A stretch of DNA of 64,000 nt, taken from Patescibacteria group bacterium (GTDB lineage Bacteria > Patescibacteriota > Microgenomatia > UM-FILTER-40-11). The translations under genes and the position numbers were made by a program. Of the stretch, positions 12,765-64,000 are shown piece by piece. The stretch's first letter is position 1; every line of letters starts with the position of its first letter. Under the pieces are notes generated by a model, which did not search any database, had not been told where the DNA came from, and saw only the letters and a program-made list of their open reading frames with translations. The stretch covers positions 87,861 to 151,860 of the forward strand of contig DATKVM010000005.1 in assembly GCA_035530075.1 (NCBI GenBank), read 5' to 3'.

Positions 12765-12803
12765 ACTAACTACTGGCTACTGGCTACTGGCTACTGGCTA
12801 CTA
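12765..12803. repeat. Tandem heptanucleotide repeat (ctactgg/ctggcta), about 5.5 copies
   Basis: ctactaa ctactgg ctactgg ctactgg ctactgg ctactat read directly; lies between the sortase stop and the ruvX start, and the last unit supplies the sortase stop codon. Confidence 0.9.
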
Positions 12804-13547
12804 TATTTTCGTCAGTCTCGCCCTGATAATCAACCTTCTTAAGTAAGTTCCTGGGGGAACACAAGTAATTAAAGTCAAATAAGCATCATCATAGCGCTGG
12901 GCCAAGATGGAAATATCGTTCGGCGCCACTTCGATCATTTGTTCTATCACAAATTTGTACCTAACCTGGCCATAATCAACAAAGATTTCATCACCGATTT
13001 TTAAGGTCGGCAGAGTCGAAAAAATTGTCAGATAGTTTTTCGGATTAAAAAATTGGGGCAAAACTGAATGGCCAAAAATAACCGTGTTACCAAACCGACC
13101 AGGGGAGGCGGTGCCCGGATATTGAACAAGACTCTTCTTCAAATCCTCCATTCCCACTACAACCACCGCTTTATCAATCCCCAGCTTGGGAATAGAAAAT
13201 TGATAAGTGTTAACCGCCTCTTCCGCAAAGGCGGTGTTTTCTTCCGGAAACCAATTGCTAGCTTTAGTGTAATCTACCAAATCAATTTCCGTTCCCAAAA
13301 CTTCCGTCTCGCCGTTGGGCGGGCCAAAAGTCTGAGCAATCGCGGCGTCCGAATTGGGACTAATAAAAGCCGTCGAAAAACGCGGGGAAATTAAGAGCTG
13401 ATAAGAAATAATGGGATAAGCGGCATTAATGAAAAAAAAGAGGCCAACGACGACTAACAAAACGGCCATAAACCGCGCGTTTAAGCGGCTAGCCTTACCC
13501 GCCGCTTTAGAGGGAGTCTGCCTTTTAACGTAGCGATAAGGGACCAT
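12801..13547 (-). CDS. Sortase family transpeptidase
   Basis: N-terminal TM, VIFGHS (His) and TLITCVPPG (catalytic Cys TLxTC) motifs. Confidence 0.8.
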   Translation of the reverse strand: MVPYRYVKRQTPSKAAGKASRLNARFMAVLLVVVGLFFFINAAYPIISYQLLISPRFSTAFISPNSDAAIAQTFGPPNGETEVLGTEIDLVDYTKASNWFPEENTAFAEEAVNTYQFSIPKLGIDKAVVVVGMEDLKKSLVQYPGTASPGRFGNTVIFGHSVLPQFFNPKNYLTIFSTLPTLKIGDEIFVDYGQVRYKFVIEQMIEVAPNDISILAQRYDDAYLTLITCVPPGTYLRRLIIRARLTKI

Positions 13548-21617: not shown

Positions 21618-21636
21618 TTTCTGGTAGAATTGGGTT

Positions 21637-22155: not shown

Positions 22156-22160
22156 TAATT

Positions 22161-22177: not shown

Positions 22178-22202
22178 TTTCTTCTTTTGGTAGAATTAGT
22201 AA

Positions 22203-22817: not shown

Positions 22818-22898
22818 CGAGATAACAATCTAGCAACCCGCCTGCCTTCGCCTAATGGCAAAACCCATGGCGGGCAGGTGTAACAATGAAACAATAGA

Positions 22899-22925
22899 AT
22901 CTCCCCTTGCCCCCGAATTTTCTGA
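22899..22925 (+). repeat. Island motif copy 9: atctccccttgcccccgaattttctga
   Basis: Part of the 22713-22927 direct repeat that matches 19015-19190. Confidence 0.7.
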
Positions 22926-52175: not shown

Positions 52176-52260
52176 ATTTTCTCGTCTCTCAAAAGAGGCC
52201 GGAAGGAAACAGATGAAGAAATTCCCCTCCCTTGCTAACCCGCAGTATACGAAAAAAGGC

Positions 52261-52289
52261 TTGCATTTTAAAGGGGTAATTGATAGGAT
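52261..52289 (+). promoter_or_regulatory. Sigma70-like promoter for rpsT (-35 TTGCAT, 17 nt, -10 TAGGAT)
   Basis: Read directly; 24 nt upstream of the rpsT ATG. Confidence 0.45.
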
Positions 52290-52312
52290 ATACCAGCACT
52301 AGAGGTCAAAAA

Positions 52313-52579
52313 ATGCCCATTATCAAAAGCGCCAAAAAGGCTTTAAGACAAACAAAGAAAAGAACGCTCGCTAATCGAAGCAAGAAAAATCTTTTGCAAA
52401 CCCAAATGCGAGCTTTCAAAAAAGGGAAAAATCAAAAATCGCTTTCAGCGATTTACGCCTTAGTGGACAAAATGGCTAAGACTGGCGTTATTCACAAAAA
52501 CAAAGCGGCTCGGATTAAGAGCCGGTTTAGCCGTCTAACCGCTAAAGCCAACCCGCCCAAAAAAACGGCTACCGCTTAA
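52313..52579 (+). CDS. rpsT: 30S ribosomal protein S20
   Basis: MPIIKSAKKALRQTKKRTLANRSKKN... canonical S20 N-terminus. Confidence 0.9.
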   Translation: MPIIKSAKKALRQTKKRTLANRSKKNLLQTQMRAFKKGKNQKSLSAIYALVDKMAKTGVIHKNKAARIKSRFSRLTAKANPPKKTATA

Positions 52580-52650
52580 ACTCCTTTTTAGCAAAATTTA
52601 GCTTCGCTGCGGCTTTGACAATCAACCTTTGGCTTTAATATACTAGTTTT

Positions 52651-53220
52651 ATGCCTCAAGATAAGAGAATCAACCTTCTTCCTAAGGATAAGTTCGAATC
52701 CTCTACTCTGGGCAGATTTCTCAAGTGGTCCACTTCCACTGGTCGAGCCATTGTTGTTCTAACTGAGTTCGTGGTTATTTGCGCCTTTCTCTCCCGTTTC
52801 TATTTCGATACTCGACTAGCTAATCTTTTTGATGAAATCAATCAAAAAAAAGCGATTGTTGCTTCGGCGGCTGCCTTTGAAGAGGACTTTCGCCGAACCC
52901 AAGAAAAAATTCAAGTCATCAAAGTTCTCTTGACCCAAGAATCAAAACCCTCCGTTTTAATTAGCGAAATCAGTCAGCTTTTGCCCTTGGATGTTTCTCT
53001 AACCGCTCTCAATTTGGAGGAAAAGGACATCACTCTCAGTGGCTATACTTTTACCGAAAATGGCTTACGCCTTTTCTGGATTAGTCTTAATCAATATCCG
53101 GAATTGGAAGAAGTAACCCTGACTAATATCTCTTCTCGCAAAGAAGGTATGCCCGGTCTTGATTTCGTCATCAAGGCCACAATTAAAGCTAAAAAGACAG
53201 TTGGTGAAACTAAAAAATAA
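52651..53220 (+). CDS. pilN: PilN-like type IV pilus assembly protein
   Basis: RINLLP N-terminal signature, single TM, about 190 aa. Confidence 0.55.
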   Translation: MPQDKRINLLPKDKFESSTLGRFLKWSTSTGRAIVVLTEFVVICAFLSRFYFDTRLANLFDEINQKKAIVASAAAFEEDFRRTQEKIQVIKVLLTQESKPSVLISEISQLLPLDVSLTALNLEEKDITLSGYTFTENGLRLFWISLNQYPELEEVTLTNISSRKEGMPGLDFVIKATIKAKKTVGETKK

Positions 53221-53253
53221 ACTGAAAAATAAAAAAGGGAAGAAAAATCGACT

Positions 53254-53919
53254 ATGAATTTCGACTGGAAAACGGAATATTATCGTTACCGACGCTACTT
53301 CTTTAGCCTGGGCAAAATCGGCAAAACAGCGCCAGTGCGTTCTTTCGCTTGGCTTTCTTTAACGCTTTTTGCCATTGCTTTTTTCGCGGTAATGGCAATT
53401 CGGCCGACTTTAATAACCATCGCTAAACTTAATCGAGAAATTAAGGACAAGAAAGACGCCAGTCAAAAACTACAAACTAAAATCAATGCGATCGTTGCCG
53501 CTCAAGCTCTCTACGCGCGAAACTTAGACCATCTCCCTTTGTTGGAGGAAGCGCTCCCGGAAAAAAGCGAATTTCCCCGGCTGGCCTTCTTTTTCGAAGA
53601 AAACGCCACTGCCTCAAACGTAGAGCTTAAAACTCTAAACTTTGAAAAAATCGGCGTAAGCGAAAAAGGCTCTTCGTCTTCATCTTCGACGGCGAATTCT
53701 CTTTATTTCTCCCTCAATGTTGCGGGTGATTATGCCTATCTCAAAGACTTCACTCGCCGCTTGGAAACTTCCCGCCGAATTCTTAAAATTGATTCCGCCG
53801 CCTTTAGTCAAGTTAAAAAGGAAGAAGGCTGGCAACTTACTTTGCGAGTAACTGGCCAAGCTTCATTTAGTAAAAATCAAGTTGAGCCTAAACCGACTCA
53901 AGCACCGAGCCAAAAATGA
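53254..53919 (+). CDS. pilO: PilO-like type IV pilus assembly protein
   Basis: Single TM followed by a coiled-coil and a C-terminal alpha/beta domain; directly downstream of the PilN-like gene. Confidence 0.45.
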   Translation: MNFDWKTEYYRYRRYFFSLGKIGKTAPVRSFAWLSLTLFAIAFFAVMAIRPTLITIAKLNREIKDKKDASQKLQTKINAIVAAQALYARNLDHLPLLEEALPEKSEFPRLAFFFEENATASNVELKTLNFEKIGVSEKGSSSSSSTANSLYFSLNVAGDYAYLKDFTRRLETSRRILKIDSAAFSQVKKEEGWQLTLRVTGQASFSKNQVEPKPTQAPSQK

Positions 53920-54113
53920 AAAAAAACTATAGCCAAGAAATTTTTATTATTTCCATTTTAACTCTGACTATCACCGTCCTTTGGGTTTATCTAGGCATCC
54001 ATTTTGCCCTGCAAAAGAGTGAAAAGCCGGCTTTAACCCCTCAAGAAACTCGCATTTTAAACCCCCAACTCGATGAAAGCGTTTTCGAAGAATTAAAAGC
54101 CAGAAAAATTTAA
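53916..54113 (+). CDS. Small single-TM protein (65 aa)
   Basis: Overlaps the upstream gene stop by 4 bp (translational coupling); one hydrophobic helix. Confidence 0.3.
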   Translation: MKKNYSQEIFIISILTLTITVLWVYLGIHFALQKSEKPALTPQETRILNPQLDESVFEELKARKI

Positions 54114-54122
54114 GGGCAAGAA

Positions 54123-55481
54123 GTGAAAAAACTTCTCCAACCAAAAAGCTTACCCGCTCCTCTTGGCCTCGCACTGGCCCTATTGGGGCTTTTAGGGGGC
54201 GTTTTAGCGATTAATCGCATCCAAAACTTGGCCTCCCGCGCTTCTTTAGAAACCGTTCCCCAGCAGCTGAAAATTACCAATATCGGCAGTTCTTCCTTTG
54301 TCGTCAGTTGGACCACGGCCGAAAAAACCACCGGGGCCATTGCTGTCGGTGAAACGACAGAAATGGGAGAAATTAAAAAGGACTTTCGTGACCTAGAATC
54401 ATCAACCTTCACTTCTTCCTCGGTTCATTTTGTTTTTATCGATAACCTCAAACCCCAAACCAAGTATTACTTCAAAATTATTTGCGGTGGCAAAAATTAT
54501 GACGATTCAGGAAAGCCTTTCGAGGTTGTCACTGCTCCAGCCAAAGTGCCCCCCGATAACGATTTAGCTTTTGGGAAAATCCTAACTCCTGAGGGTCAAC
54601 CGGCAGCAGGAGCAATTGTCTATCTCTCCCTCGCCAACACTCTTCCTCAAGCGGCGCTTACGGATAAGGAGGGTAATTGGGTTATCGCTCTTTCGACGGC
54701 TCGGACGACCGACCTGCAAGACTTTTCTCACTATGATCGGAGCGCTCAAATCGAAGAAATTTATGTCCGAGCCGAAAACGAGACTGCCACCGCAACGATC
54801 TCGACCGGCAATGACAGTCCTGTTCCCGATATTATTCTTGGCCAAAATTATAACTTTTTGAGCATAATGCCGATTCTTTCCCCAACCCCCAACCCGGTAG
54901 TAGGCCGCGGTGGCTTACCCCAAAGCGACTTGTCCCATACTTCTGTCGAAGAATTGGAATTGGCGATTACTTCTCCGGCCGAAAATGAAGAAATCAGTAC
55001 GGGGTTACCGGAATTTTTTGGCACTGGACCAAAAAGCGAAAGACTCCAAATCACGGTAGAATCTAACGAAAAAATTAATAGCCAAGTCACCGTTAATTCG
55101 ACCGGAGAGTGGAGTTGGACACCTCAAGCTTCCCTTTCTCCAGGCGAACACCAATTAACCGTTTCCTATACGGACGCCAAAGGAATATTGCAAAAGGTAA
55201 CCCGCTCCTTTATTGTCTTGGCCGCCGGTGAAAGTAGCTTGCCGTCTTTTACCGCTACTCCCTCGGGGGAAACTGCTGTTCCCCCGCCAACGGCGACCCC
55301 CACTCCCAAAGCAAAAGCTTCACCCACGGCGACGCCCAAACCGACCGCCACTCCTCAACCCACTACTTTGCCTTCAACTGAAAGCGCGGCTCCCTCTTCC
55401 GGTAACTTCTTGCCCACTAAAATTTTCTTAGGCATAGGAGCCGCTATTCTCATTGTCGGTGCAGCTCTTTTGCTACTCTAA
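54123..55481 (+). CDS. Surface protein with signal/TM anchor, fibronectin-III-like domain(s), Pro/Thr-rich linker and a C-terminal LPTK + hydrophobic anchor
   Basis: ...SSFVVSWTTAEKTTGAIAVG...KPQTKYYFKI... FN3-like; ...PTATPTPKAKASPTATPKPTATPQPTT... linker; C-terminus NFLPTKIFLGIGAAILIVGAALLLL. Confidence 0.6.
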   Translation: MKKLLQPKSLPAPLGLALALLGLLGGVLAINRIQNLASRASLETVPQQLKITNIGSSSFVVSWTTAEKTTGAIAVGETTEMGEIKKDFRDLESSTFTSSSVHFVFIDNLKPQTKYYFKIICGGKNYDDSGKPFEVVTAPAKVPPDNDLAFGKILTPEGQPAAGAIVYLSLANTLPQAALTDKEGNWVIALSTARTTDLQDFSHYDRSAQIEEIYVRAENETATATISTGNDSPVPDIILGQNYNFLSIMPILSPTPNPVVGRGGLPQSDLSHTSVEELELAITSPAENEEISTGLPEFFGTGPKSERLQITVESNEKINSQVTVNSTGEWSWTPQASLSPGEHQLTVSYTDAKGILQKVTRSFIVLAAGESSLPSFTATPSGETAVPPPTATPTPKAKASPTATPKPTATPQPTTLPSTESAAPSSGNFLPTKIFLGIGAAILIVGAALLLL

Positions 55482-55518
55482 CCTCGTTTTGCGGTCAACA
55501 TTGTATTAAAATACCGGT

Positions 55519-56805
55519 ATGAAAATCGCCATTATTGGCGGAGGGTTCACCGGATTAACGGCTGCCCTCCGTTTAGCTAAAGAAGGTCATCTGGTGACTC
55601 TCTTTGAGAAAGAGGATCAGCTGGGAGGATTGGCCTCCTCGTTCAAAAAAAACGGCTGGGATTGGCCCTTGGAACATTATTTCCACCATTATTTTAGTTC
55701 CGATCAAGCAGTAAAAAGGTTAGTCCAAGAGCTGCATCTGGAAAAAAAATTATCTTACTTTAAACCGAAAACCTCGGTTTATCTTGAAGGAAAGGTCTCT
55801 CGTTTTGATAGTTTCTCAAGCCTCCTTTTTTTTCCCAAACTAAAATTGACCGACAAATTAAGAACCGGACTGACTATTCTTTTTTTGAAATTTAACCCTT
55901 TTTGGCAACCCTTAGAAAAGATTCCGGCAGCCACTTTTATCCAAAAAACCATGGGGAAAGAAACTTACCGTCTAATCTGGCAGCCACTTTTGCAAAGTAA
56001 GTTTGGAGCCTTGGCTAACCAAATTCCCGCTTCTTGGTTTTGGACAAGAATCAAAAAAAGAAGTTTTGCCTTAGGATATTTAAACGGGGGAACTGCCGCT
56101 CTCCTTAGCGCCTTAACAGAAGAAATCAAAAAGAAACAGGGGCAAATTCTTCTGGGCCAAGCAGTCAGCCAGATTAAAAAAGCTCCAGACGGATTTGTCC
56201 TTTATTTCCAAAGCCAGCCGTATCCGACCAAATTTGAAAAAGTAATGGCCACCGTTCCTCCAGCCACTTTGGCCAAAATCGCTAGCGAACTTCCATTGAC
56301 AGAGAAAGCCAGCCTCCAAGCCCTTAAAAGTTTGGGCAGTCTTTGCCTGATTCTGGCTCTCAAGAAAAGCCTGCTTACCGACGGGACTTATTGGCTTAAT
56401 GTTAACGAAAGCCATTTCCCCTTCGTCGCTGTCGTTGAACATACCAATTTAATAGACAAAAAACATTACGGTCAAAATGTTCTTTTATATATTGGCGGTT
56501 ATTACCCGGCCCAACATCCCTTTTTCCGCCAAAATAAAGCGGCTCTTTTCCGGAAATTTCTTCCTTATTTGCAAAAGATTAATCCTTCCTTCGACTTTAA
56601 TCAAAACCTGAACGAATACTGGCTTTTCAAGAATGAATACAGTCAGCCGATAGTTTCGGCTAACTATTCTCAGAATCGGCCATTGGTTAAAACTAGCCTT
56701 CCGGGTCTTTATTGGGCTAGCCTTCATCATATTTACCCGGAAGACCGTGGGGTTAACTCTGCTATTCTTTTAGGAGAAAAACTTGCCAATGAAATTGTTT
56801 CTTAA
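55519..56805 (+). CDS. FAD/NAD(P)-binding oxidoreductase (amine-oxidase/protoporphyrinogen-oxidase/UGM-like superfamily)
   Basis: MKIAIIGGGFTGLTAALRLAKEGHLVTLFEKEDQLGG Rossmann dinucleotide-binding motif. Confidence 0.7.
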   Translation: MKIAIIGGGFTGLTAALRLAKEGHLVTLFEKEDQLGGLASSFKKNGWDWPLEHYFHHYFSSDQAVKRLVQELHLEKKLSYFKPKTSVYLEGKVSRFDSFSSLLFFPKLKLTDKLRTGLTILFLKFNPFWQPLEKIPAATFIQKTMGKETYRLIWQPLLQSKFGALANQIPASWFWTRIKKRSFALGYLNGGTAALLSALTEEIKKKQGQILLGQAVSQIKKAPDGFVLYFQSQPYPTKFEKVMATVPPATLAKIASELPLTEKASLQALKSLGSLCLILALKKSLLTDGTYWLNVNESHFPFVAVVEHTNLIDKKHYGQNVLLYIGGYYPAQHPFFRQNKAALFRKFLPYLQKINPSFDFNQNLNEYWLFKNEYSQPIVSANYSQNRPLVKTSLPGLYWASLHHIYPEDRGVNSAILLGEKLANEIVS

Positions 56806-58471
56806 AAAGAATTTCAAGCTACTGGCAATTCTTTTGGTCGCTTTTTTTCTGCGTTTTGTGGGAATTTCCTGGGGACTTCCTTATCACTTCCACCCTGATG
56901 AGTGGAATATGGCCAATGCTGTTTCTCAACTTTCTTGGGCCGATAAACTGCAGCCTCACTTTTTTGCCTATGGCCAGCTACCTCTTTACCTAAGCTTTTT
57001 TTCTGGCCGACTTTATAACCTTATCCCCTGGATTAATCTTGACCAAGTAAGTCCAACTGAGGCAACCTTTTTTCTGCGTTTCTGGTCCGCCCTCGCTGGC
57101 GTCGGCACTGTCTCCCTCGTTTACCTAATTACAAAGCGTCTGCTGACTACTAACTACTGTCTACTGGCTACTCTGTTGGCCGCTTTCACTCCCGGCTTAA
57201 TTCAAATTGCCCATTTTGGCACTACCGAATCCTTGCTCTCCTTTTTCTTTCTGGCAACTGTCTATTTTTCAATAAAAATCGTTGAAGAAAATCGATCAAG
57301 AAACTATTTTTTTGCCGGATTGCTTTTAGGACTGGCCTTAGGAACTAAAATCAGCGCCCTGGTTTTTGCCTTTCCGATCATTTTTGCTCTTCTCTTAAAA
57401 CTTCGGCAAGCGATGATTAAGAAGTCTTCGTGGTGTAGAGGGGGTGGTCTCTTCTTCCTTTTTCTTTGCGCCACCGCCATCTTTTTCTTTGTCTCTTCCC
57501 CATATGTTATCCTCAATTTCTCGGAAACAAAAAGAATCCTTCTTTACGAGGCTCAAGTGGCCAGTGGCCAAATCCCTGTCTTTTACACCCGACAATTCTT
57601 GAAGACCACTCCTGTTTTGTTTCAACTGGAAAAAATTTTCCCTTATGCCCTCGGCTGGCCAATTTTTATCCTCGGAATGGCCGGATTTCTTTTAATATTA
57701 TTTTTAATAGCCAAAAAATTACTCAAAACAAAACATTTTTCTTTTACCCTTACTACTTACTACTTACTACTGACTACTTTTCTGGTTTACTTCTTTTCCC
57801 AGGCTTTTCTTTTTTGCAAATGGACGCGCTTTATGGCCCCCATTTTTGCCTTCTTCCCCATCTTCGCCACTTTCTTCCTAAGTTACCTAAGTAACTTAAG
57901 AATTAAGGCTTTTTTAGTCGGAATTGCTCTTCTTCCGGGAATAGTCTTTTCTTCAATCTATTTCCGGCCCGATATCCGCTTTCAGGCCTCGGACTGGATT
58001 TATAAAAACATTCCTGCCAGCTCGCGAATTTTATCGGAGACCGGTAATGTCATCGACATCCCTATTCTCCCGCTTTCTAATCCTGACCACTCCCTCTCTT
58101 CCGTATCCTTCGACTTTTATCGCCTCGATGAAAATCCCCGGCTTCTCTCCCAATTGCTAGATTCACTCAGCAACAGCGACTACGTCTTTGTTCCTAGTCG
58201 CCGGTTATTCGCCAACCACTTAAGACTACCCCAAGACTACCCACTCACCGCCAAATATTATAAGCTTTTGTTTTCGGGTCAATTAGGTTTCACCGAAATT
58301 AAAAAATTCCAACCCTTTCCCAACTTATCACTTATCACTTATCACTTATCACTTTCCGACGAATCTGCCGAAGAAACTTGGTCAGTCTTTGACCACCCGG
58401 TCGTTAGAGTTTTCCAAAAAAAGGTCAGTCTAACTCGCCAGCAATATGAAGAACTATTTAAAGAAGATTAA
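56789..58471 (+). CDS. GT-C type membrane glycosyltransferase (PMT/ArnT-like, HPDE loop) containing heptanucleotide repeats
   Basis: GLPYHFHPDEWN loop, at least 10 TM segments, C-terminal soluble domain; ATG 56789 preferred over TTG 56783. Confidence 0.6.
   Translation: MKLFLKKNFKLLAILLVAFFLRFVGISWGLPYHFHPDEWNMANAVSQLSWADKLQPHFFAYGQLPLYLSFFSGRLYNLIPWINLDQVSPTEATFFLRFWSALAGVGTVSLVYLITKRLLTTNYCLLATLLAAFTPGLIQIAHFGTTESLLSFFFLATVYFSIKIVEENRSRNYFFAGLLLGLALGTKISALVFAFPIIFALLLKLRQAMIKKSSWCRGGGLFFLFLCATAIFFFVSSPYVILNFSETKRILLYEAQVASGQIPVFYTRQFLKTTPVLFQLEKIFPYALGWPIFILGMAGFLLILFLIAKKLLKTKHFSFTLTTYYLLLTTFLVYFFSQAFLFCKWTRFMAPIFAFFPIFATFFLSYLSNLRIKAFLVGIALLPGIVFSSIYFRPDIRFQASDWIYKNIPASSRILSETGNVIDIPILPLSNPDHSLSSVSFDFYRLDENPRLLSQLLDSLSNSDYVFVPSRRLFANHLRLPQDYPLTAKYYKLLFSGQLGFTEIKKFQPFPNLSLITYHLSLSDESAEETWSVFDHPVVRVFQKKVSLTRQQYEELFKED
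57749..57776. repeat. Heptanucleotide tandem repeat (cttacta x3 + ctgacta) inside a GT-C CDS
   Basis: Read directly; encodes TLTTYYLLLTT. Confidence 0.8.
58324..58354. repeat. Perfect heptanucleotide tandem repeat (cttatca x4.4) inside a GT-C CDS
   Basis: cttatcacttatcacttatcacttatcactt read directly; encodes LSLITYHLSLS. Confidence 0.9.
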
Positions 58472-60200
58472 AGTTTTTTTCCCCAGATTAAGCCCAAAAC
58501 TAATTCTCGGGCTTATTCTTTTCTTGGCGGCTTTTCTGCGTCTATATGGTCTTAATTGGGACCAGGGCCAGCATCTCCATCCGGATGAGCGCTTTTTAAC
58601 GATGGTGGAAACTGCCCTCAGCCTTCCTCAAACTTTCAACGAATACCTTAACCCTCAAACTTCCCCGATGAATCCTCACAACCGAGGCTATCAATTTTTT
58701 GTTTATGGAACTTTTCCTCTTTTCCTAACGAAGCTGGCCGGGGAACTGACTAATTATTCCGACTACGATCAGATTCATTTTATCGGTCGATTCCTTTCCG
58801 CCCTGTTCGACTTAAGTACGATATTAATCATATTTAAAATCGGTCAAAGGGTTTTTAACACTAAGGCCGGCATCCTCGCTGCTTTCTTATACTCCTCCAT
58901 GGTCCTCCCACTTCAACTTTCTCACTTCTTTGCGGTGGACACTTTCCTAACTTTTTTCCTCGTACTTTCGTTTTACTTTCTTGTTTTGCTGACAACTGAC
59001 TTTCGATTGCTAACTACTGCCACTCTCGGCATTTCCTTCGGTTTCGCCCTCGCTTGCAAAATTTCGGCTTTGTTTTTTGGGCCAGTTATTGTCGGGGGGT
59101 TACTTTTTATCTTAATTAAGAAATCAAAACAGCCAATTAAAATCTGCCTTGGGTTAATTACCGTCTTGGCTTTTTCCGCCCTCGCTTTTAGGCTTAGTCA
59201 GCCTTCTGCTTTCGCGACCGCCTCATTTGGCCAATGGCGGATTAACCCTCAGTTCGTGGTTAACTTAAAAGAACTAAGACAATATGACAATCCGGAAACT
59301 CTTTTTCCACCCTCAATCCAATGGCTGGCCACTAAACCAATACTGTTTCCCTTGAAAAATTTAATTTTCTGGGGGGTAGGATTACCTTTAGGAATCACGG
59401 CTGTTTTTTCTCTTCTTTACGCCATCGCTCAACTACTTAACTTTTCGATTTCCGTCAGAGGGAGAACCTTCAAACTAGAGGCGAAAAAATTTTTATATTT
59501 TTTGGCTCTTTTCTGGATTCTTGGCATTTTTTTCTATCAAGGCAGTCAGTTTTCTAAAAATATGCGCTATTTTTTGCCAATTTATCCCTTTTTGGCCCTC
59601 TTGTCGGCCGATTTCTTGCTTAAAATTATCGATTTATTGAGAGGAAAACTGTCGAAAAGGGCTCTTTTTGTTTCCGTTAGCCTGTTTTTTTCTCTCTTCT
59701 TAATTTATCCTCTCTCTTTTATGTCAATTTACGCCCAGCCCAACACCCGCATGGCCGCCTCAAATTGGATTTATCAAAATATCCCGGCCGGAGCCACTCT
59801 TCTTAATGAAGAATGGGACGACCCGCTCCCCCTTAACTTACCTCAAGAAAATTCTTCAATTTACACTCAAGAATATGTTTTTATGTATGCCCCCGATACC
59901 CCCGAGAAGTGGAAAAAGATTAATTCCCAACTAGAGAAAGTTGACTATATTGTTCTTTCCTCCAATCGAGCTTACGGCTCCACTATGCGCCTCGCCGATA
60001 GGTACCCTCAAACCATCGCCTATTATCAATCGCTTTTTACGGGAAGTGGAAAGTTTCAAAAGGTAGCCGAGTTTTACTCCTATCCTTGTCTTCCCCACCT
60101 CGGAGCACTTTCAATTTGTTTTAATGACGACGACGCCGAAGAATCCTTTACCGTCTACGATCATCCCAAAGTTATCATTTTTAAGAAAGCTTCTCACTAA
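58446..60200 (+). CDS. GT-C type membrane glycosyltransferase (PMT/ArnT-like, HPDE loop), paralogue of 56789
   Basis: GLNWDQGQHLHPDERF loop; same architecture and C-terminal ...DDAEESFTVYDHPKVIIF ending as the upstream paralogue (…SAEETWSVFDHPVVRVF). Confidence 0.6.
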   Translation: MKNYLKKIKVFFPRLSPKLILGLILFLAAFLRLYGLNWDQGQHLHPDERFLTMVETALSLPQTFNEYLNPQTSPMNPHNRGYQFFVYGTFPLFLTKLAGELTNYSDYDQIHFIGRFLSALFDLSTILIIFKIGQRVFNTKAGILAAFLYSSMVLPLQLSHFFAVDTFLTFFLVLSFYFLVLLTTDFRLLTTATLGISFGFALACKISALFFGPVIVGGLLFILIKKSKQPIKICLGLITVLAFSALAFRLSQPSAFATASFGQWRINPQFVVNLKELRQYDNPETLFPPSIQWLATKPILFPLKNLIFWGVGLPLGITAVFSLLYAIAQLLNFSISVRGRTFKLEAKKFLYFLALFWILGIFFYQGSQFSKNMRYFLPIYPFLALLSADFLLKIIDLLRGKLSKRALFVSVSLFFSLFLIYPLSFMSIYAQPNTRMAASNWIYQNIPAGATLLNEEWDDPLPLNLPQENSSIYTQEYVFMYAPDTPEKWKKINSQLEKVDYIVLSSNRAYGSTMRLADRYPQTIAYYQSLFTGSGKFQKVAEFYSYPCLPHLGALSICFNDDDAEESFTVYDHPKVIIFKKASH

Positions 60201-60209
60201 CCCTTAAGA

Positions 60210-61745
60210 TTAAAATCCATTTTGGTATTCCCAGAAAATGACTTTTCCTTCTGGGCTTTTGACTTCCTTAAAAATCCCCCCTGGAAAGCACAATTCAAGC
60301 TGCGACAAGAAATCTTTTCCCCGGGGGTCAAGGGCAAAATAATAATTTCCCTTTCTCGAGCGGCAATAAAAACTGCCTTCCTTAAGGAAATTAATTTCTT
60401 TTGGGCTTCTAAGAGAAAACTTAATTGCCTCCGGCTCCGGTTGGCCCCATTCTCCCCAGCAACAAGAATAAACAAAAACTTCCGCGCTCTCAGGTAGTTG
60501 GTCTATTCTGGAAGCAATAATCTTCCCAAAAGGAACATTGCCGTTGGGCAGTCCCCGGGTATAGTCAAAAAAATAACTTTTGAAATTCAGAGCCAAAGCC
60601 ATCAAAAAAAGCCAGGCAAACATAAGTTTCGCCAATAAAGGCTTTCTTTCACTTATTTTCCGAAAAGACCAACTTGCCCCTAGAGCGACGATTAAACAAA
60701 CAAAGGGCAAAGCCCCAATTGAACGAGTCGCCGAAGGAATATCAATGGGAAAATTAAGCACCAAAACGGAAGGTAACTGAAGGACAATCAGGGGCAATAA
60801 AACAAACGGCCAAAGTTGGCGCTTACCGAATAAGTAAACGCCGCCGAGAAGGAAGAAAAGCCCGCTTAATAAATCCAGCTGAGGTGCTCGGGGAGGATTG
60901 ACTCTAAAGACAATATCTCCCCTTAAATGAAGCATTGCCGCCTGGTTAACTAAATTAGTCAGCAACACTTTTATTAAATCGGAAAGTGTCTTTCCCTGAG
61001 AATTAATCATTCTGGCGGGGTGATGCCAATAACTGAGGGGGGATTTCCAAGCATAAATTGCCAACGGAGCAAAAACTAGGGCAAAACTTAAAGAGACTAT
61101 CGCCATCCCTTTTAAGAGAAAAATCTTCTCTCGCCTTTGCTTTTGCCAAAAAGCCCAAAAATAACCAGTCAGAATCAAAATCGGCATCACCCTAAAAGCG
61201 GTGTAAGTATACATTCCTAGGCCTAAGAATAAACCCGTGACCAAAAAATCAACTAACTTTAATTTCCGAATCGATTTGAGGAAAAAAATAAAAACCAAGG
61301 AAACAAACAGGGGCATTAAAATCGCCCGCAACCCCAACCGGCTAAAGGTCAGGTGCCAACGGGAGATAGCTAGAAAGAAAGCGGCTAACAAGCCCACCTT
61401 TTTATCCACTAGTTCCTTCCCTAAAAAGTAAATCGCCAAAACCCCCGCTAAACCGATCAGCGCCGTAGTGATTTTTTGCGTTAAATAACTTAAGCCAAGA
61501 AACCGGGCAATAATCGCAGTTAAATAAAAAAGCATTCCTTCGCGTCCGGTATTTTTGGGGAAAAAAATGGCCAGTTTTCCCGACATAATCTCAGCGATGT
61601 CTTTAAAATTTTCGTTGACATCACCAAACATTTCTCCGGGTAACTCCTCCAAAAGATAAAATCTTAAAAAAACCGCTACCGAAAAAATCAGAAAAAAAGG
61701 TAAGATTTTCTTCAGAGTGGATAGAAGCAGTTTCTTGCTTATCAT
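60210..61745 (-). CDS. GT-C type membrane glycosyltransferase (ArnT-like)
   Basis: 511 aa, polytopic, N-terminal acidic loop ...EELPGEMFGDVNENF... Confidence 0.55.
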   Translation of the reverse strand: MISKKLLLSTLKKILPFFLIFSVAVFLRFYLLEELPGEMFGDVNENFKDIAEIMSGKLAIFFPKNTGREGMLFYLTAIIARFLGLSYLTQKITTALIGLAGVLAIYFLGKELVDKKVGLLAAFFLAISRWHLTFSRLGLRAILMPLFVSLVFIFFLKSIRKLKLVDFLVTGLFLGLGMYTYTAFRVMPILILTGYFWAFWQKQRREKIFLLKGMAIVSLSFALVFAPLAIYAWKSPLSYWHHPARMINSQGKTLSDLIKVLLTNLVNQAAMLHLRGDIVFRVNPPRAPQLDLLSGLFFLLGGVYLFGKRQLWPFVLLPLIVLQLPSVLVLNFPIDIPSATRSIGALPFVCLIVALGASWSFRKISERKPLLAKLMFAWLFLMALALNFKSYFFDYTRGLPNGNVPFGKIIASRIDQLPESAEVFVYSCCWGEWGQPEPEAIKFSLRSPKEINFLKEGSFYCRSRKGNYYFALDPRGKDFLSQLELCFPGGIFKEVKSPEGKVIFWEYQNGF

Positions 61746-61760
61746 TAAATTTCCTTCCGA

Positions 61761-62927
61761 CTAATAATCAAATTTATTTCCCGAGGGGAAAAGTAAGCTT
61801 TGAAATTGGTCAATGGCTTTCTCCAGGGAAAAAATTTCTTTTGCCCGCCGCCCATTTTTAACATAACGGTTTTTATTCTTAATCACTTTAATAATGGCCC
61901 GGCTGATTTCTTGAGGGTTTCGGGGAGAGACGACTTCCCCCATTTGAGTTAATTTCACCGGCACCCTTACCCCCGGTAAATTACTGGCCACTACCGGGCA
62001 ACCACTGACCATCGCTTCCATTTGAATCATACCAAAAGCTTCCGTAGAATTGACACTGGGTAGAACTAAAACATCCAGTTTTCGAAGAAAGGAAACCAAC
62101 TCTTCATCGGTCAGTTTGCCCAAGAAAACAGCTTTCCCTAAATATCTCTGGGACAAAGAATTAATCTCCCGCCAATATTTTTCTTCCCCGACCGTCTCCT
62201 TGGGCCCAACCAAAAAAAGCCCAAAATCTTTTAGTTCTTCTCCCAAGTAAGGTATAGCCTGAAGTAAATATTCAATTCCTTTGTCGGCGGCCACTCTTCC
62301 CACATAACCAATTTTGTCTTTCCTTCCCTTAAGTTTCTCAAGAACAATTTTATCCGCTTCCGTTTCACCTGAGTCTTTCCTCAAGAAAATTTTATCCAGT
62401 GGCGGATAAATAATAACCACTTTATTTAAAAAATGCCTCAGGACGGGAGAATGCTTGGCATAATCTTCACTAGAATTAATAACTTTTTGAGCCAGGGCGC
62501 AACAGAGAAAATTAATTGCCATTAGCGTTTTCCCAATAATCTTATTGACCAAACTCGAAGCGAAAACAACATCACAGTGGTAAACGACCAAAGCTTTTTT
62601 CTTAAAAAGCCTGGCCAGGAAAAGCAACCATAATGATTCCGGCTGAGGTAAATGACAAATAACGCTATCGGCCGCCCTTACTTTTTGGTAACCTTGCCAT
62701 AACCAGGCGGGCATAACCAGGCCCTTATTTACCCGCCAAAGAAAAGGCACCCGGGTAACCAAAACTTTCCCTATTTTCTCTTTTTTGGCCAATTTCTTGT
62801 CATACTGTGCCGTGAGAATCTCTACCGTCTCTCCTTTGTCACTCAACCCCTCGGCTAACCGTTTAGCATAAACGCTCACGCCAGAAAGATAGGGATCATA
62901 ATAGGAAAGTGAAAAAAGGACTTTCAT
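61761..62927 (-). CDS. GT-B glycosyltransferase, family 4-like
   Basis: ...EAFGMIQMEAMVSGCPVVAS... E-x7-E motif. Confidence 0.85.
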   Translation of the reverse strand: MKVLFSLSYYDPYLSGVSVYAKRLAEGLSDKGETVEILTAQYDKKLAKKEKIGKVLVTRVPFLWRVNKGLVMPAWLWQGYQKVRAADSVICHLPQPESLWLLFLARLFKKKALVVYHCDVVFASSLVNKIIGKTLMAINFLCCALAQKVINSSEDYAKHSPVLRHFLNKVVIIYPPLDKIFLRKDSGETEADKIVLEKLKGRKDKIGYVGRVAADKGIEYLLQAIPYLGEELKDFGLFLVGPKETVGEEKYWREINSLSQRYLGKAVFLGKLTDEELVSFLRKLDVLVLPSVNSTEAFGMIQMEAMVSGCPVVASNLPGVRVPVKLTQMGEVVSPRNPQEISRAIIKVIKNKNRYVKNGRRAKEIFSLEKAIDQFQSLLFPSGNKFDY

Positions 62928-62938
62928 TTTTCCTCAAG

Positions 62939-63460
62939 TTAATTACAAATTGAAGAAATTTCAATCTTTTTATTTGAAGGACAAACAACTTTTAGGGAAG
63001 AAAGTTTCTCTTTCAGAAAGGAAGCAATTTCTTCATCGTCTTCAACGAAAATATCTGCTTTTATCTTCCTCAGCATTCTTTCCTTAAATAAGTGCGGCTG
63101 CTCATCGCCAAGATTAACGAATACTTCGGCGAAAAGATCCTCTAGTTCTCTTTTTTTCAACCAGTTTTTGGTTTCGTCTTTCAAAAAAGAGTAACGCCCC
63201 GAGATAACAAAAAGCTCATACTCCTTTTCCCGGGCAAGCCGGCGAATAAGAGCAATATTATTGCCGATAGGCGGCCGGAATAAATAATAATGAGATATCT
63301 TTCTCAGATATTTTTCCAACTTAAATCTGGGAAAACGATACCGAAGCTCTCTCTGATTGCCACCTTTAAAAAGCCGGTCAATTAATCGCTGAGGAATTAA
63401 CGGTGGTTTATCGACAATGACGCCGTCCAGGTCAAAAGCAACCCTGATTTTCCTCGCCAT
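62939..63460 (-). CDS. HAD-superfamily hydrolase-like protein
   Basis: VAFDLDGVIVD motif I (DxDG). Confidence 0.55.
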   Translation of the reverse strand: MARKIRVAFDLDGVIVDKPPLIPQRLIDRLFKGGNQRELRYRFPRFKLEKYLRKISHYYLFRPPIGNNIALIRRLAREKEYELFVISGRYSFLKDETKNWLKKRELEDLFAEVFVNLGDEQPHLFKERMLRKIKADIFVEDDEEIASFLKEKLSSLKVVCPSNKKIEISSICN

Positions 63461-63553
63461 TTGGCTGATTATACCCCGAGATAGGCAACCAGCGCAAAAA
63501 AAGATAAAGTCCCGCCTGATTGCAATCCAGAGAGGGTAATTTTAAAATACGCT

Positions 63554-64000
63554 TATGCTCGCGGACCTAAAAATTATTTTTGTTTGGTGGGGTTATCTTT
63601 TTGCCATTGGTTTGATATTTCTACCGCTTAGCCGACGCCTCTTTTCCTCCTTCTTCGATCAAGGTTATCTCTTCGCCAAAGTTTTAGGAATTTTGTTTTC
63701 TTCTTACTTGGTCTGGCTTCTGGCTTCTTTAAAAATCTTACCTTTTACCCTTATGTCGATTTGGGGGGCTTTCCTTTTGGGTTTATTTTGCAACCTTTTT
63801 CTTCTCAAACAAGATACCACCCTAAGGAAAGCAACCCGCCCGCTGGCGCTTACCTGGATGGGAGAGGAGCTCTTATTCCTTCTAGCTTTGGCGACTTGGT
63901 CTTTTGTCCGTGGTTTTCAGCCAGATATTCAAGGCCTAGAAAAATTTATGGATTTTGGCTTTGTTAACTCGATTCTGCGCAGCCGTTTTTTTCCGCCAGC
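63554..64000 (+). CDS. Polytopic membrane protein, DUF2298-like (N-terminal part; continues beyond the window end)
   Basis: ...EKFMDFGFVNSILRSRFFPP... resembles the MDFAFLNSILRS..FPP signature I recall for DUF2298 / chlor_Arch_YYY proteins. Confidence 0.4.

What the first reader, a model, noticed from the sequence alone, without database searches (positions are those of the whole stretch)
52651..64000. Surface-structure / glycosylation locus: PilN-PilO-like, FN3 surface protein, FAD oxidoreductase, three GT-C, one GT4, HAD, DUF2298-like
A co-directional block (52651-60200, plus strand) encodes PilN/PilO-like assembly proteins, a small TM protein, a 452-aa FN3-domain protein with a PT-rich stalk, a flavin oxidoreductase and two paralogous GT-C enzymes. 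It is followed on the minus strand by a third GT-C, a GT4 and a HAD hydrolase, then by a DUF2298-like polytopic protein. PMT/ArnT-like GT-C enzymes use lipid-linked sugars to glycosylate proteins or lipids on the outer face. The arrangement suggests an O-glycosylated pilus-associated or S-layer-like surface protein system. Five GT-C genes fall in 64 kb (1176, 26798, 56789, 58446, 60210), which is a high density.
Basis: partly seen in the sequence, partly recalled or inferred. Interest (0 to 1): 0.6.

Follow-up and report, generated by a model that had tools for sequence, protein, structure and literature searches.

The report
Conserved Microgenomates pilN–pilO surface-glycosylation gene block
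This stretch of an uncultured ultra-small bacterium (Patescibacteria, Microgenomates type) holds a gene block, conserved across that group, that joins two pilus-assembly proteins, a stalked wall-anchored surface protein and many membrane sugar-transferases; the parts are known families, but the combination appears undescribed.

Summary
HAD is weak, and ORF 26798 looks GT-C-like only by profile-profile comparison.

New findings:
- pilN to GT-C B is a tightly packed operon behind a near-consensus promoter.
- The order PilN-PilO-small TM-FN3-(inserts)-flavoprotein-GT-C...DUF2298-LCP recurs in about 45 other Microgenomates genomes, down to 40% identity, and persists where the upstream neighbours differ.
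- The FN3 protein family ends in a P/T-rich stalk, a [LIV]PxxG sortase-type signal (LPPTG in distant orthologs, degenerate APSSG here) and a membrane helix. A sortase gene lies in the window.
- The locus continues past the window end with a full Chlor_Arch_YYY/DUF2298 protein and an LCP transferase.
- The flavoprotein (NCBIfam PRK07233, protoporphyrinogen-oxidase/phytoene-desaturase fold) is followed by a polytopic GT-C-like gene in 54 of 65 loci and by a GT2 in 6.

Best reading: an envelope operon coupling type IV pilus alignment proteins with a wall-anchored, probably O-glycosylated stalk protein and lipid-linked glycan assembly. The acceptor, the flavoprotein substrate and the pilus link are inferred. 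No pilM, pilB, pilC or pilin genes occur in the window. It is a new variant of known kinds, of moderate interest.

The parts
52615..52644 (+). sigma-70-like promoter match (TTGACA-18-TATACT, 11/12), 7 bp upstream of the pilN start codon and downstream of rpsT
   Evidence: Best-scoring promoter-like site in 52100-64000. This is a pattern match only.
52651..53220 (+). PilN-like bitopic membrane protein (189 aa) with an N-terminal RINLLPK motif
   Evidence: Pfam PilN 41.2 bits, cut-off 22.8. One TM near residue 34. The INL motif is conserved in orthologs. The ortholog profile hits M. xanthus PilN 3jc8 at E 4.2e-5.
53254..53919 (+). PilO-like bitopic membrane protein (221 aa)
   Evidence: Pfam PilO 28.1 bits, cut-off 22. 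One TM. It follows PilN in 45 of 46 FN3-bearing loci.
53916..54113 (+). small single-pass membrane protein (65 aa); its start overlaps the pilO stop by 4 nt
   Evidence: ORF listed. No family found. Orthologs (65-130 aa) are detected in the same position in about 20 loci, and a 116-129-aa ORF family fills the slot in 8 more.
54123..55481 (+). 452-aa surface protein. Layout: N-terminal signal/anchor helix, FN3 domain, a second beta-sandwich, an Ig (Big_13) domain, a conserved LPSFTATPSG motif, a 55-residue P/T/S-rich stalk, a PxxG motif (APSSG) and a C-terminal hydrophobic helix.
   Evidence: Pfam hits. AF2 model with three confident beta-sandwich domains and disordered linkers. Family alignment. 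C-terminal LPPTG-type signals in distant orthologs. Stalk composition.
55519..56805 (+). FAD-dependent oxidoreductase, NCBIfam NF005560/PRK07233, with a protoporphyrinogen-oxidase/phytoene-desaturase fold
   Evidence: NCBIfam 432.6 bits, cut-off 252. Pfam Amino_oxidase 102.6. AF2 pLDDT 92. Foldseek to PPOX and PDS 5mog with TM 0.84 at 16% identity.
56789..58471 (+). GT-C glycosyltransferase A (PMT_2/PMT-like, about 560 aa) with an invariant HPDE loop motif; overlaps the flavoprotein gene
   Evidence: Pfam. HPDE conserved in 28/28 orthologs. About 9 hydrophobic segments. The 560-aa start was called by external gene callers.
58446..60200 (+). GT-C glycosyltransferase B, a paralog of A (584 aa), with the HPDE motif
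   Evidence: Pfam PMT_2 47.6. 30% identity to A, E 3e-58. PDE conserved in 22/22 orthologs.
60210..61745 (-). GT-C glycosyltransferase C (511 aa). The loop Asp is kept, but the usual following Glu is Val in this copy.
   Evidence: Pfam PMT_2 41.2. hhalign to A and B at 99.4-99.5%. Motif count.
61761..62927 (-). GT4 (GT-B fold) nucleotide-sugar glycosyltransferase, no TM segment
   Evidence: Pfam Glycos_transf_1 102 bits and Glyco_transf_4 42 bits. No TM segment.
62939..63460 (-). small HAD-like phosphatase candidate (173 aa) with an FDLDGV motif I
   Evidence: Only sub-threshold HMM hits. Motif seen. Orthologs lie next to DUF2298 in 15 loci.
63555..64000 (+). N-terminal 148 aa of a 709-aa Chlor_Arch_YYY/DUF2298 polytopic protein, cut by the window end. 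An LCP (LytR-CpsA-Psr) gene follows on the minus strand beyond the window.
   Evidence: Pfam DUF2298 70.1 bits for the fragment. Full length on L001: DUF2298 339.6 bits and TIGR03662 529 bits, cut-off 300. LCP: Pfam 123 bits and TIGR00350 102 bits.
12801..13547 (-). sortase (248 aa, TLITC active-site motif), a candidate processing enzyme for the FN3 protein, 40 kb away
   Evidence: Pfam Sortase 79.5 bits. NCBIfam sortase_fam 54.5 bits, cut-off 39. Sequence.

Best explanation
The region is a conserved cell-envelope locus of Microgenomates-type Patescibacteria. It has two linked modules.

Module 1 is pilN-pilO-small TM gene-FN3 gene.
- It encodes the membrane alignment pair of a type IV pilus machine. 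Its PilM partner and the motor genes must lie elsewhere.
- It also encodes a Sec-exported protein of three beta-sandwich domains on a P/T-rich stalk.
- That protein is held by a C-terminal helix behind a sortase-type PxxG signal.

Module 2 runs from the flavoprotein gene through GT-C A, B and C, GT4 and HAD to Chlor_Arch_YYY/DUF2298 and LCP.
- It assembles glycans from polyprenyl-phosphate-linked sugars on the outer face of the membrane.
- It transfers them to Ser/Thr of the stalk (PMT-like), or through LCP to the protein or to peptidoglycan.

Shown here:
- the family memberships;
- the operon-like packing;
- the conserved gene order;
- the conserved catalytic loop motif of the GT-C enzymes;
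- the conserved stalk and C-terminal signal.

Inferred:
- the acceptor;
- the sugar;
- the role of the flavoprotein, which probably acts on a lipid-linked intermediate or on the polyprenyl carrier;
- any physical link between PilN/PilO and the FN3 protein.
For: Family assignments:
- Most calls pass curated cut-offs.

Operon structure:
- Gaps from pilN to GT-C B are 33, -4, 9, 37, -23 and -26 nt.
- The best promoter-like site of the region sits just before pilN.

Synteny:
- 64 non-self loci have at least 4.5 kb upstream of the flavoprotein gene. Of these, 46 carry the FN3 gene upstream, and 45 of them have a contiguous PilN-PilO-FN3.
- 54 loci have at least 8 kb downstream. Of these, 40 carry DUF2298, and 31 have an adjacent minus-strand LCP.
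- In L087 the block PilN...DUF2298 persists with UvrD in place of murJ-rpsT upstream.
- In L085 the FN3 module sits next to a different GT-C, a PMT with PMT_4TMC, plus LCP and no flavoprotein. So the FN3 module is repeatedly paired with GT-C and LCP genes.

Protein features:
- HPDE is invariant in 28/28 GT-C A orthologs, and PDE in 22/22 GT-C B orthologs.
- The FN3 family is uniform in length and architecture and restricted to Patescibacteria.
- It always carries a P/T-rich stalk and a PxxG motif followed by a helix. Distant orthologs have LPPTG plus a basic tail.
- An active-looking sortase is in the window.
- The PilN N-terminal INL motif is conserved.

Flavoprotein:
- Its gene is followed by a protein of at least 6 TM segments in 54 of 65 loci, and by a GT2 in 6.
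- Its fold is that of membrane-associated enzymes acting on hydrophobic substrates.

Precedent:
- In Actinomyces oris an LCP enzyme glycosylates the surface protein GspA (PMC6381275). The cited Wu et al. [quoted passage not shown]
Against: - rpsT and murJ are conserved as neighbours in most of these loci too (S20 next to PilN in 36 of 46). Adjacency alone therefore does not prove a shared function.
- In 17 of 46 loci other genes separate the FN3 gene from the flavoprotein gene.
- In 18 of 64 loci the flavoprotein/GT-C module occurs without PilN, PilO or FN3 nearby.
- No pilM, pilB, pilC, pilT, pilD or prepilin gene is in the window, and pilM is not adjacent to pilN in any locus.
- The window's own FN3 copy has APSSG rather than LPXTG and has no basic tail. 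It may simply stay membrane-anchored.
- The GT-C genes are not members of the curated Pmt or Agl23 families. They lack the PMT_4TMC domain, so protein O-mannosylation is only one option.
- No GT2 polyprenyl-phosphate-sugar synthase lies in this copy of the locus.
- There are no expression, glycan or structural data.
Confidence: 0.55

Rival explanations
1. Two unrelated modules are neighbours only by inheritance. One is a type IV pilus alignment pair with a wall protein. The other is a secondary cell-wall glycopolymer pathway (GT-C, GT4, DUF2298). In this reading LCP ligates the polymer to peptidoglycan, and the FN3 protein is not glycosylated by these enzymes.
For: - rpsT and murJ are comparably conserved as neighbours (S20 next to PilN in 36 of 46 FN3-bearing loci) although functionally unrelated.
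- Inserts separate the modules in 17 of 46 loci.
- The flavoprotein/GT-C module stands alone in 18 of 64 loci.
- The classical role of LCP enzymes is glycopolymer-to-peptidoglycan transfer (NCBIfam names; PMC6381275 abstract).
Against: - From pilN through GT-C B the genes overlap or are at most 37 nt apart, with no strong plus-strand terminator between them.
- The whole block persists where the upstream neighbours are replaced (L087).
- The FN3 module is again next to a GT-C and LCP in a locus that lacks the flavoprotein and DUF2298 (L085).
- The P/T-rich stalk is a classical O-glycosylation substrate (established knowledge for actinobacterial Pmt).
Confidence: 0.28
2. The PMT_2-type proteins act on lipids rather than on proteins or wall polymers. 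They could be ArnT-like glycosylators of membrane lipids or lipoglycans, or Agl23-like helpers of lipid-linked sugar translocation.
For: - PMT_2 is a broad family that includes ArnT-like enzymes (established knowledge).
- GT-C A and C give weak hits to TIGR03663/Agl23, at 33 and 31 bits.
- Agl23 of Haloarcula is reported as a putative hexose-P-dolichol flippase. It translocated a lipid-linked oligosaccharide in a reconstituted assay (PMC11182771).
- The Chlor_Arch_YYY protein is of unknown function.
Against: - The Agl23 scores are far below the cut-off of 126.
- The invariant HPDE loop motif fits a transferase active site.
- An LCP gene and a stalked, sortase-signal protein flank the genes, which points to wall or protein acceptors.
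Confidence: 0.1
3. The PilN/PilO-like pair is not part of a pilus machine in these organisms. It has instead been recruited as a membrane scaffold for export or assembly of the FN3 surface protein.
For: - pilM is never adjacent to pilN in 47 loci, unlike the contiguous pilM-N-O sets of Saccharibacteria TM7x.
- PilN-PilO-small TM-FN3 is contiguous in 45 of 46 loci.
Against: - The N-terminal INL(L/I) motif, which in PilN binds PilM (established knowledge), is conserved.
- The profile matches a genuine T4aP PilN.
- PilM homologs are reported in most Patescibacteria phyla (PMC11623550).
Confidence: 0.07

Closest known systems
Type IVa pilus alignment subcomplex PilM-PilN-PilO-PilP(-PilQ) of Pseudomonas and Myxococcus, and the pilM-N-O sets of Saccharibacteria TM7x
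   Same: - PilN and PilO are bitopic proteins encoded in tandem.
- PilN has the N-terminal INLLP-type motif.
- The PilN profile hits Myxococcus PilN.
- A small membrane protein and a beta-sandwich-rich envelope protein occupy the gene positions that pilP and pilQ hold in Gram-negative operons.
   Different: - There is no adjacent pilM, no secretin and no lipoprotein PilP.
- The downstream protein is an FN3/Ig protein with a sortase-type signal.
- The operon runs on into glycosyltransferase genes.
- The resemblance to PilP/PilQ is positional only.
[quoted passage not shown] 2014 as cited in PMC11623550)
   Same: A surface protein with a sortase-type C-terminal signal, an LCP transferase gene and a sortase gene occur together with lipid-linked glycan genes.
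   Different: - Here the glycan genes are dominated by GT-C enzymes, a Chlor_Arch_YYY protein and a flavoprotein.
- The sorting motif of this copy is degenerate.
- The locus includes PilN/PilO.
- No biochemical evidence exists for this locus.
Actinobacterial protein O-mannosylation by Pmt (GT39) of Pro/Thr-rich regions of Sec-exported proteins
   Same: - GT-C A hits Pfam PMT and PMT_2 and has the acidic loop motif.
- A Sec-type exported protein with a P/T-rich stalk is encoded two genes upstream of GT-C A.
   Different: - There is no PMT_4TMC domain and no hit to the NCBIfam Pmt equivalog.
- Three paralogs replace one enzyme.
- No Ppm1-like GT2 lies in this copy of the locus.
- One related locus (L085) does carry a PMT with PMT_4TMC.
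Mycobacterial arabinogalactan assembly (DprE1/DprE2 epimerisation of a decaprenyl-phosphate sugar, GT-C arabinosyltransferases, Lcp1 ligation to peptidoglycan)
   Same: A flavoenzyme, several GT-C enzymes and an LCP gene are clustered. Some related loci add an NAD-dependent epimerase/SDR and a GT87-like protein.
   Different: - The flavoprotein has the PPOX/phytoene-desaturase fold, whereas DprE1 is a vanillyl-alcohol-oxidase-type flavoenzyme (from memory).
- No UbiA-type prenyl-phosphate phosphoribosyltransferase was seen.
- The SDR is absent from this copy.
Chlor_Arch_YYY (TIGR03662) with TIGR03663/Agl23-like GT-C proteins of Chloroflexi and Archaea
   Same: - The DUF2298 protein is a member of TIGR03662: 529 bits against a cut-off of 300, with the NYYYFGH motif.
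- PMT-like GT-C genes lie beside it, as the TIGRFAM authors noted for the two families (from memory).
   Different: - The GT-C genes here fall far below the TIGR03663 cut-off.
- The organism is a Patescibacterium.
- PilN/PilO, the sortase-signal protein, the flavoprotein and LCP are additional to that pairing.

Membership tests
PilN (PF05137) | Profile match above the curated cut-off | tested here: met
   41.2 bits against 22.8. The ortholog profile hits M. xanthus PilN 3jc8 at E 4.2e-5.
PilN (PF05137) | Short cytoplasmic N-terminus with the INLLP-type PilM-binding motif, then a single TM helix | tested here: met
   The protein starts MPQDKRINLLPK and has a TM near residue 34. The INL motif is conserved in orthologs.
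PilN (PF05137) | Encoded with pilM and pilO | tested here: inconclusive
   pilO is adjacent. pilM is absent from the window and from all 47 loci around pilN. The rest of the genome could not be read.
PilO (PF04350) | Profile match above the cut-off, bitopic topology, directly after pilN | tested here: met
   28.1 bits against 22. It has one TM, and the gap to pilN is 33 nt.
Complete type IV pilus system | PilB/PilT ATPases, PilC platform, PilD peptidase, PilM and prepilins with a G/FTLIE-type signal | tested here: not met
   None were found among the window's ORFs or in a six-frame motif scan. Presence elsewhere in the genome is not testable with these tools.
GT-C, PMT_2 (PF13231) | Profile match above the cut-off, polytopic, acidic (D-E) motif in the first outside loop | tested here: met
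   - Scores are 65.2, 47.6 and 41.2 bits against 26.1.
- Each has 7-11 hydrophobic segments.
- HPDE/PDE is invariant in A and B.
- C keeps the Asp only.
Bacterial protein O-mannosyltransferase Pmt (GT39; NCBIfam NF058602) | Equivalog score and the C-terminal PMT_4TMC domain | tested here: not met
   No NF058602 hit and no PMT_4TMC for the three window GT-C genes. Only GT-C A hits PF02366, at 55.6 bits.
Agl23 / TIGR03663 | Score of at least 126 bits | tested here: not met
   33.3 bits for GT-C A and 30.7 bits for GT-C C.
Chlor_Arch_YYY / DUF2298 (TIGR03662, PF10060) | Profile match above the cut-off and the YYYxG motif | tested here: met
   - The window fragment scores 70.1 bits against 27.8.
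- The full length on L001 scores 529 bits against 300.
- NYYYFGH is conserved.
Sortase substrate (cell-wall sorting signal) | LPXTG-type motif, then a hydrophobic segment, then a basic tail; N-terminal signal peptide | tested here: inconclusive
   - The window copy has APSSG, a helix and no basic tail.
- The G is invariant and the P nearly so in the family alignment.
- Distant orthologs have LPPTG, a helix and a basic tail.
- The signal peptide is inferred from an N-terminal helix and an ASRA motif. No signal-peptide predictor was available.
NF005560 / PRK07233 flavoprotein | Equivalog score of at least 252 bits | tested here: met
   432.6 bits over the full length. The family has no assigned function. 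No paper was found.
Protoporphyrinogen oxidase / phytoene desaturase | Equivalog-level sequence match | tested here: not met
   The fold matches (TM 0.76-0.84) at only 16-18% identity. TIGR00562 scores 50 bits against 98, and phytoene desaturase 42 bits against 569.
HAD phosphatase | Profile match above the cut-off; DxD motif I | tested here: inconclusive
   Pfam HAD_2 and Hydrolase score about 15 bits against cut-offs of 24-26. BT0820 scores 23 bits against 165. The motif FDLDGV is present.
GT4 (Glycos_transf_1 + Glyco_transf_4) | Both GT-B half-domains above their cut-offs | tested here: met
   102.1 and 42.4 bits.
LCP (LytR-CpsA-Psr) | Profile match above the cut-off, N-terminal TM anchor | tested here: met
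   Tested on L001, just beyond the window end. Pfam scores 123 bits and TIGR00350 scores 102 bits against 62. It has one TM.

The most novel reading that the evidence does not exclude
In Microgenomates the FN3/Ig stalk protein and the small TM protein may be dedicated parts of the type IV pilus machine. They would form a peptidoglycan-anchored, glycosylated collar that does for a wall-bearing, outer-membrane-less cell what PilP/PilQ do in Gram-negatives. The pilus base would then be built together with its own glycan coat.

In the same reading, the PRK07233 flavoprotein is a new kind of oxidoreductase. It would act on polyprenyl-phosphate sugars or on the polyprenyl carrier itself, as a functional analogue of DprE1 or of a polyprenol reductase with a phytoene-desaturase fold.
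Probability: 0.15. Interest if true: 0.75.

Novelty: new variant of a known kind. Interest (0 to 1): 0.45.

Why it matters
Patescibacteria (CPR) are thought to depend on surface contact with other cells. The cultivated ones live as episymbionts, and type IV pili are conserved across the group (PMC11623550). Their envelopes are still almost uncharacterised.

This block gives a concrete, widely conserved set of candidate envelope genes for one large CPR group:
- a uniform stalked surface protein;
- the pilus alignment pair encoded with it;
- a lipid-linked glycan toolkit containing three families with no known function: PRK07233, Chlor_Arch_YYY/DUF2298, and an unnamed 550-aa GT-C-like family.

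If the coupling is functional, it points to how a wall-bearing ultra-small cell builds and decorates its pilus base or surface layer. It would also give the first functional context for DUF2298 and PRK07233. If it is only inherited gene order, the locus is an ordinary cell-wall glycosylation cluster.

Tried and rejected
- Single-sequence PDB searches with PilN and PilO found nothing relevant. Only the PilN ortholog profile worked.
- BLASTP of DUF2298 against GT-C B, and of ORF 26798 against GT-C C, gave no similarity. Profile-profile comparison was needed.
- Foldseek with the FN3 model returned only generic tandem FN3/Ig proteins (contactins, SiiE, SlaB, SbsB) at low TM-scores. It is not informative about function.
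- Literature searches found nothing relevant. They covered PRK07233, DUF2298, TIGR03662/TIGR03663, polyprenol reductase with phytoene desaturase, and Microgenomates or Patescibacteria with sortase or glycosyltransferase terms.
- The supplement of the Saccharibacteria pilus paper is not held, so per-phylum PilM presence could not be read.
- I considered protoporphyrinogen oxidase or carotenoid desaturase for the flavoprotein and rejected both. The curated equivalog scores are far below their cut-offs, and the gene is embedded among GT-C or GT2 genes in 60 of 65 loci.
- I considered UDP-galactopyranose mutase. Only the N-terminal Rossmann segment matches.
- I suspected that the 800-aa protein next to the sortase might carry a PilM/GspL-like actin-fold domain. 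Neither Pfam, nor its homologs' Pfam records, nor a profile-versus-PDB search supported or excluded this.

Full report
**1. What is there**

The window is a housekeeping stretch of a Patescibacteria genome.
- It carries rpoB/rpoC-sized ORFs, alaS, proS, ftsK, obg, RNase J, pnp, infB, nusA, dnaK/dnaJ/grpE/hrcA and murJ.
- The flavoprotein of the locus is identical to a protein named from a 'Patescibacteria group bacterium' MAG on a 322-kb contig.

Pfam places most of them above gathering cut-offs:

| Gene | Family | Bits (cut-off) |
|---|---|---|
| 52651-53220 | PilN | 41.2 (22.8) |
| 53254-53919 | PilO | 28.1 (22) |
| 54123-55481 | fn3 / Pur_ac_phosph_N / Big_13 | 28.6 (25) / 37.9 (30) / 38.2 (27) |
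| 55519-56805 | Amino_oxidase | 102.6 |
| 56783-58471 | PMT_2 (+ PMT) | 65.2 (+ 55.6) |
| 58446-60200 | PMT_2 | 47.6 |
| 60210-61745(-) | PMT_2 | 41.2 |
| 61761-62927(-) | GT4 halves | 102 and 42 |

Further points:
- The 65-aa ORF at 53916-54113 has one hydrophobic helix and no family.
- The ORF cut by the window end is DUF2298, at 70 bits.
- The HAD call is the weakest. All HMM scores are sub-threshold, but an FDLDGV motif I is present.
- GT-C A and B are paralogs: 30% identity, E 3e-58.
- Of the two other 'GT-C' genes elsewhere in the window, 1176-2759 passes Pfam PMT.
- ORF 26798-28303 has no Pfam or NCBIfam hit. It joins the GT-C C family only by hhalign, at 96.7% probability and E 3e-10.

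**2. The locus continues beyond the window**

A metagenome contig carrying identical genes (L001) shows two more genes.
- The DUF2298 protein is 709 aa. It scores 339.6 bits on Pfam and 529 bits on TIGR03662 Chlor_Arch_YYY (cut-off 300).
- A convergent LytR-CpsA-Psr (LCP) transferase gene follows it.

By hhalign, DUF2298 is related to an unnamed 550-aa polytopic family found in sister loci (97.8%). That family is in turn related to the PMT_2-type proteins (95-97%). DUF2298 is therefore best seen as a distant GT-C relative.

**3. Operon structure**

- From pilN to GT-C B the gaps are 33, -4, 9, 37, -23 and -26 nt.
- The best sigma-70-like match of the whole 12 kb (TTGACA-18-TATACT) lies between rpsT and pilN.
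- GT-C C, GT4 and HAD form a second tight, convergent unit with gaps of 15 and 11 nt.
- These are sequence patterns, not expression data.

**4. Conservation**

I anchored on the flavoprotein and fetched 80 genome loci at 40-58% identity. I then searched their ORFs with the window's proteins.
- The order murJ(-) | rpsT, PilN, PilO, small TM, FN3, [inserts], flavoprotein, GT-C..., (GT4/HAD), DUF2298 | LCP(-) recurs. It is seen in Shapiro-, Levy-, Blackburn- and other Microgenomates genomes.
- 64 loci have enough upstream sequence. Of these, 46 carry the FN3 gene, and 45 of those have a contiguous PilN-PilO-FN3.
- 54 loci have enough downstream sequence. Of these, 40 carry DUF2298, and 31 have LCP next to it.
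- The variable middle holds more GT-C-like polytopic proteins (PMT_2, GT87-like, the 550-aa family).
- It also holds a SAM methyltransferase, an NAD-dependent epimerase and extra small P/T-rich proteins with LPxxG ends.
- Woese-, Ames-bacteria and Anaerolineae loci have the flavoprotein with GT-C and GT2 genes but no PilN, PilO or FN3.

One caveat applies. rpsT and murJ are about as conserved as neighbours, so part of the synteny is inheritance.

Two FN3-anchored look-ups speak against pure inheritance.
- In L087 the upstream genes are different (UvrD-like, with no murJ or rpsT). Yet PilN-PilO-88 aa-FN3-...-flavoprotein-555 aa-DUF2298 persists.
- In L085 there is no flavoprotein or DUF2298. 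The FN3 module still sits beside a GT-C (a PMT with PMT_4TMC) and an LCP gene.

**5. The surface protein**

- The FN3 family was found only in Patescibacteria. Its members are uniform in length (about 430-500 aa) and architecture. That is unusual for an adhesin and more typical of a structural component.
- The AlphaFold model (pLDDT 78) shows, in order:
  - an N-terminal helix (residues 12-38);
  - three confident beta-sandwich domains;
  - a disordered linker (249-276);
  - a disordered stalk (370-429);
  - a C-terminal helix.
- The alignment shows an almost invariant LPSFTATPSG motif before the stalk.
- The stalk is P/T-rich and of variable length.
- A conserved P-x-[ST]-G...P-T motif precedes the last helix.
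- In Levybacteria-type orthologs this motif is LPPTG[SN], followed by a helix and a basic tail. That is a classical sortase sorting signal.
- The window's copy is degenerate (APSSG, no basic tail), so its processing is uncertain.
- A sortase with the TLITC motif lies at 12801-13547.
- In one locus (L047) a sortase gene occupies the place next to DUF2298 that LCP takes elsewhere.
- Foldseek gave only generic tandem FN3/Ig matches.

**6. PilN/PilO**

- Both are bitopic.
- PilN begins with RINLLPK, and the INL motif is conserved among orthologs. In characterised systems this motif binds PilM (established knowledge).
- An ortholog profile finds Myxococcus PilN (3jc8) as its only clear PDB hit, at E 4e-5.
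- No pilM, motor, platform, peptidase or prepilin gene is in the window.
- pilM is never adjacent to pilN in the 47 loci. In Saccharibacteria TM7x the pilM-N-O genes are contiguous (PMC11623550).
- Whether the genome has a pilus machine could not be tested with the tools available.

**7. The enzymes**

- GT-C A and B keep an invariant (H)PDE motif in the first outside loop: 28/28 and 22/22 orthologs. GT-C C keeps only the Asp.
- They are not members of the curated Pmt or Agl23 families. Their acceptor is therefore open.
- The flavoprotein belongs to NF005560/PRK07233, a family with no assigned function (432.6 bits). I found no paper on it.
- Its model (pLDDT 92) matches protoporphyrinogen oxidases and plant phytoene desaturase (TM up to 0.84) at only 16-18% identity.
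- Equivalog scores for those enzymes are far below their cut-offs.
- Its gene is followed on the same strand by a protein of at least 6 TM segments in 54 of 65 informative loci, and by a GT2 in 6.
- I therefore infer that it acts on a hydrophobic, probably polyprenyl-linked intermediate of the same glycosylation pathway. This rests only on fold and neighbourhood.

**8. Mechanism proposed**

Steps shown are marked (S) and steps inferred are marked (I).
- (S) One tightly packed gene string encodes PilN, PilO, a small TM protein, the stalk protein, the flavoprotein and two GT-C enzymes.
- (I) PilN and PilO form the membrane alignment pair of a type IV pilus whose other parts are encoded elsewhere.
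- (I) The stalk protein is exported by Sec. It is held by its C-terminal helix and, at least in orthologs with LPPTG, is transferred by sortase to peptidoglycan.
- (I) GT4, the HAD phosphatase and the flavoprotein prepare lipid-linked sugars on the inner face of the membrane.
- (I) The GT-C enzymes and the Chlor_Arch_YYY protein use these sugars outside the membrane. They either act directly on Ser/Thr of the stalk or extend a lipid-linked glycan.
- (I) LCP then transfers that glycan to the protein or to peptidoglycan. LcpA does this for GspA in Actinomyces oris (PMC6381275).

**9. Comparison and verdict**

- Every part belongs to, or resembles, a known family.
- I found no description of the combination: the PilN/PilO operon with a sortase-signal stalk protein, PRK07233, several GT-C, Chlor_Arch_YYY and LCP, conserved across a CPR superphylum.
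- It is a new variant of known kinds, not a new kind of system.
- The main uncertainty is whether the pilus pair and the glycosylation genes are functionally coupled (best explanation, 0.55). The alternative is that they merely travel together (main rival, 0.28).
- Interest is moderate at 0.45. It would rise if the stalk protein proved to be a wall-anchored pilus component, or if the flavoprotein proved to be a new lipid-linked-sugar oxidoreductase.

Noticed in passing
window 13551-15959 (-): An ~800-aa membrane protein whose stop abuts the sortase start.
- It is conserved only in Microgenomates: 67 homologs, with no Pfam domain apart from a weak Baseplate_J hit.
- Layout: a ~300-aa cytoplasmic domain, an acidic linker, one TM and a ~330-aa outside domain.
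- By eye the N-domain has degenerate actin-fold (FtsA/PilM/GspL-like) motifs. This could be relevant to the missing PilM.
- Profile searches neither confirmed nor excluded it.
   Followed up: partly
window 30061-31509 (+) and 31681-32757 (+): Two adjacent ORFs (482 and 358 aa) have no Pfam hit even at E<=1.
   Followed up: partly
window ~18000-22900: A low-GC patch (0.37-0.39 against ~0.45).
- It carries two NUDIX genes and a GNAT acetyltransferase.
- It also carries an ORF (22203-22817) with a weak ADP-ribosyltransferase toxin-like hit (Tox-ART-HYD1, 20 bits, below cut-off).
- It may be an acquired island.
   Followed up: no
window 24016-24648 (-): A protein with HTH_25 and a Glucodextran_B-like Ig domain (RodZ-like layout) lies directly downstream of ftsK.
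   Followed up: no
window 54123-55481, residues ~373-382; alignment A2: The motif LPSFTATPSG, just before the P/T-rich stalk, is almost invariant across the FN3 protein family. Its role is unknown; it could be a processing or glycosylation site or a domain cap.
   Followed up: partly
L047 16300-17046 (-); L085 13911-17384 (-): - In L047 a sortase gene sits next to DUF2298, where LCP sits in other loci.
- In L085 the PilN-PilO-FN3 module is paired with an 824-aa PMT (with PMT_4TMC) and LCP, but with no flavoprotein or DUF2298.
   Followed up: partly
L009, L015, L016, L021, L024, L034, L055, L073 (between the FN3 and flavoprotein genes): Extra genes encode small or Cys-rich secreted proteins with P/T-rich tracts. 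Some of them end in LP(S/T)AG-type motifs plus a helix, so they are further candidate sortase substrates inserted in the block.
   Followed up: partly
loci L005-L084 (record titles): Many MAG records carrying this Microgenomates-type block are titled Gammaproteobacteria, Clostridia, Bathyarchaeia, Nevskiaceae or Sulfotelmatobacter. These taxonomy labels are probably wrong.
   Followed up: no
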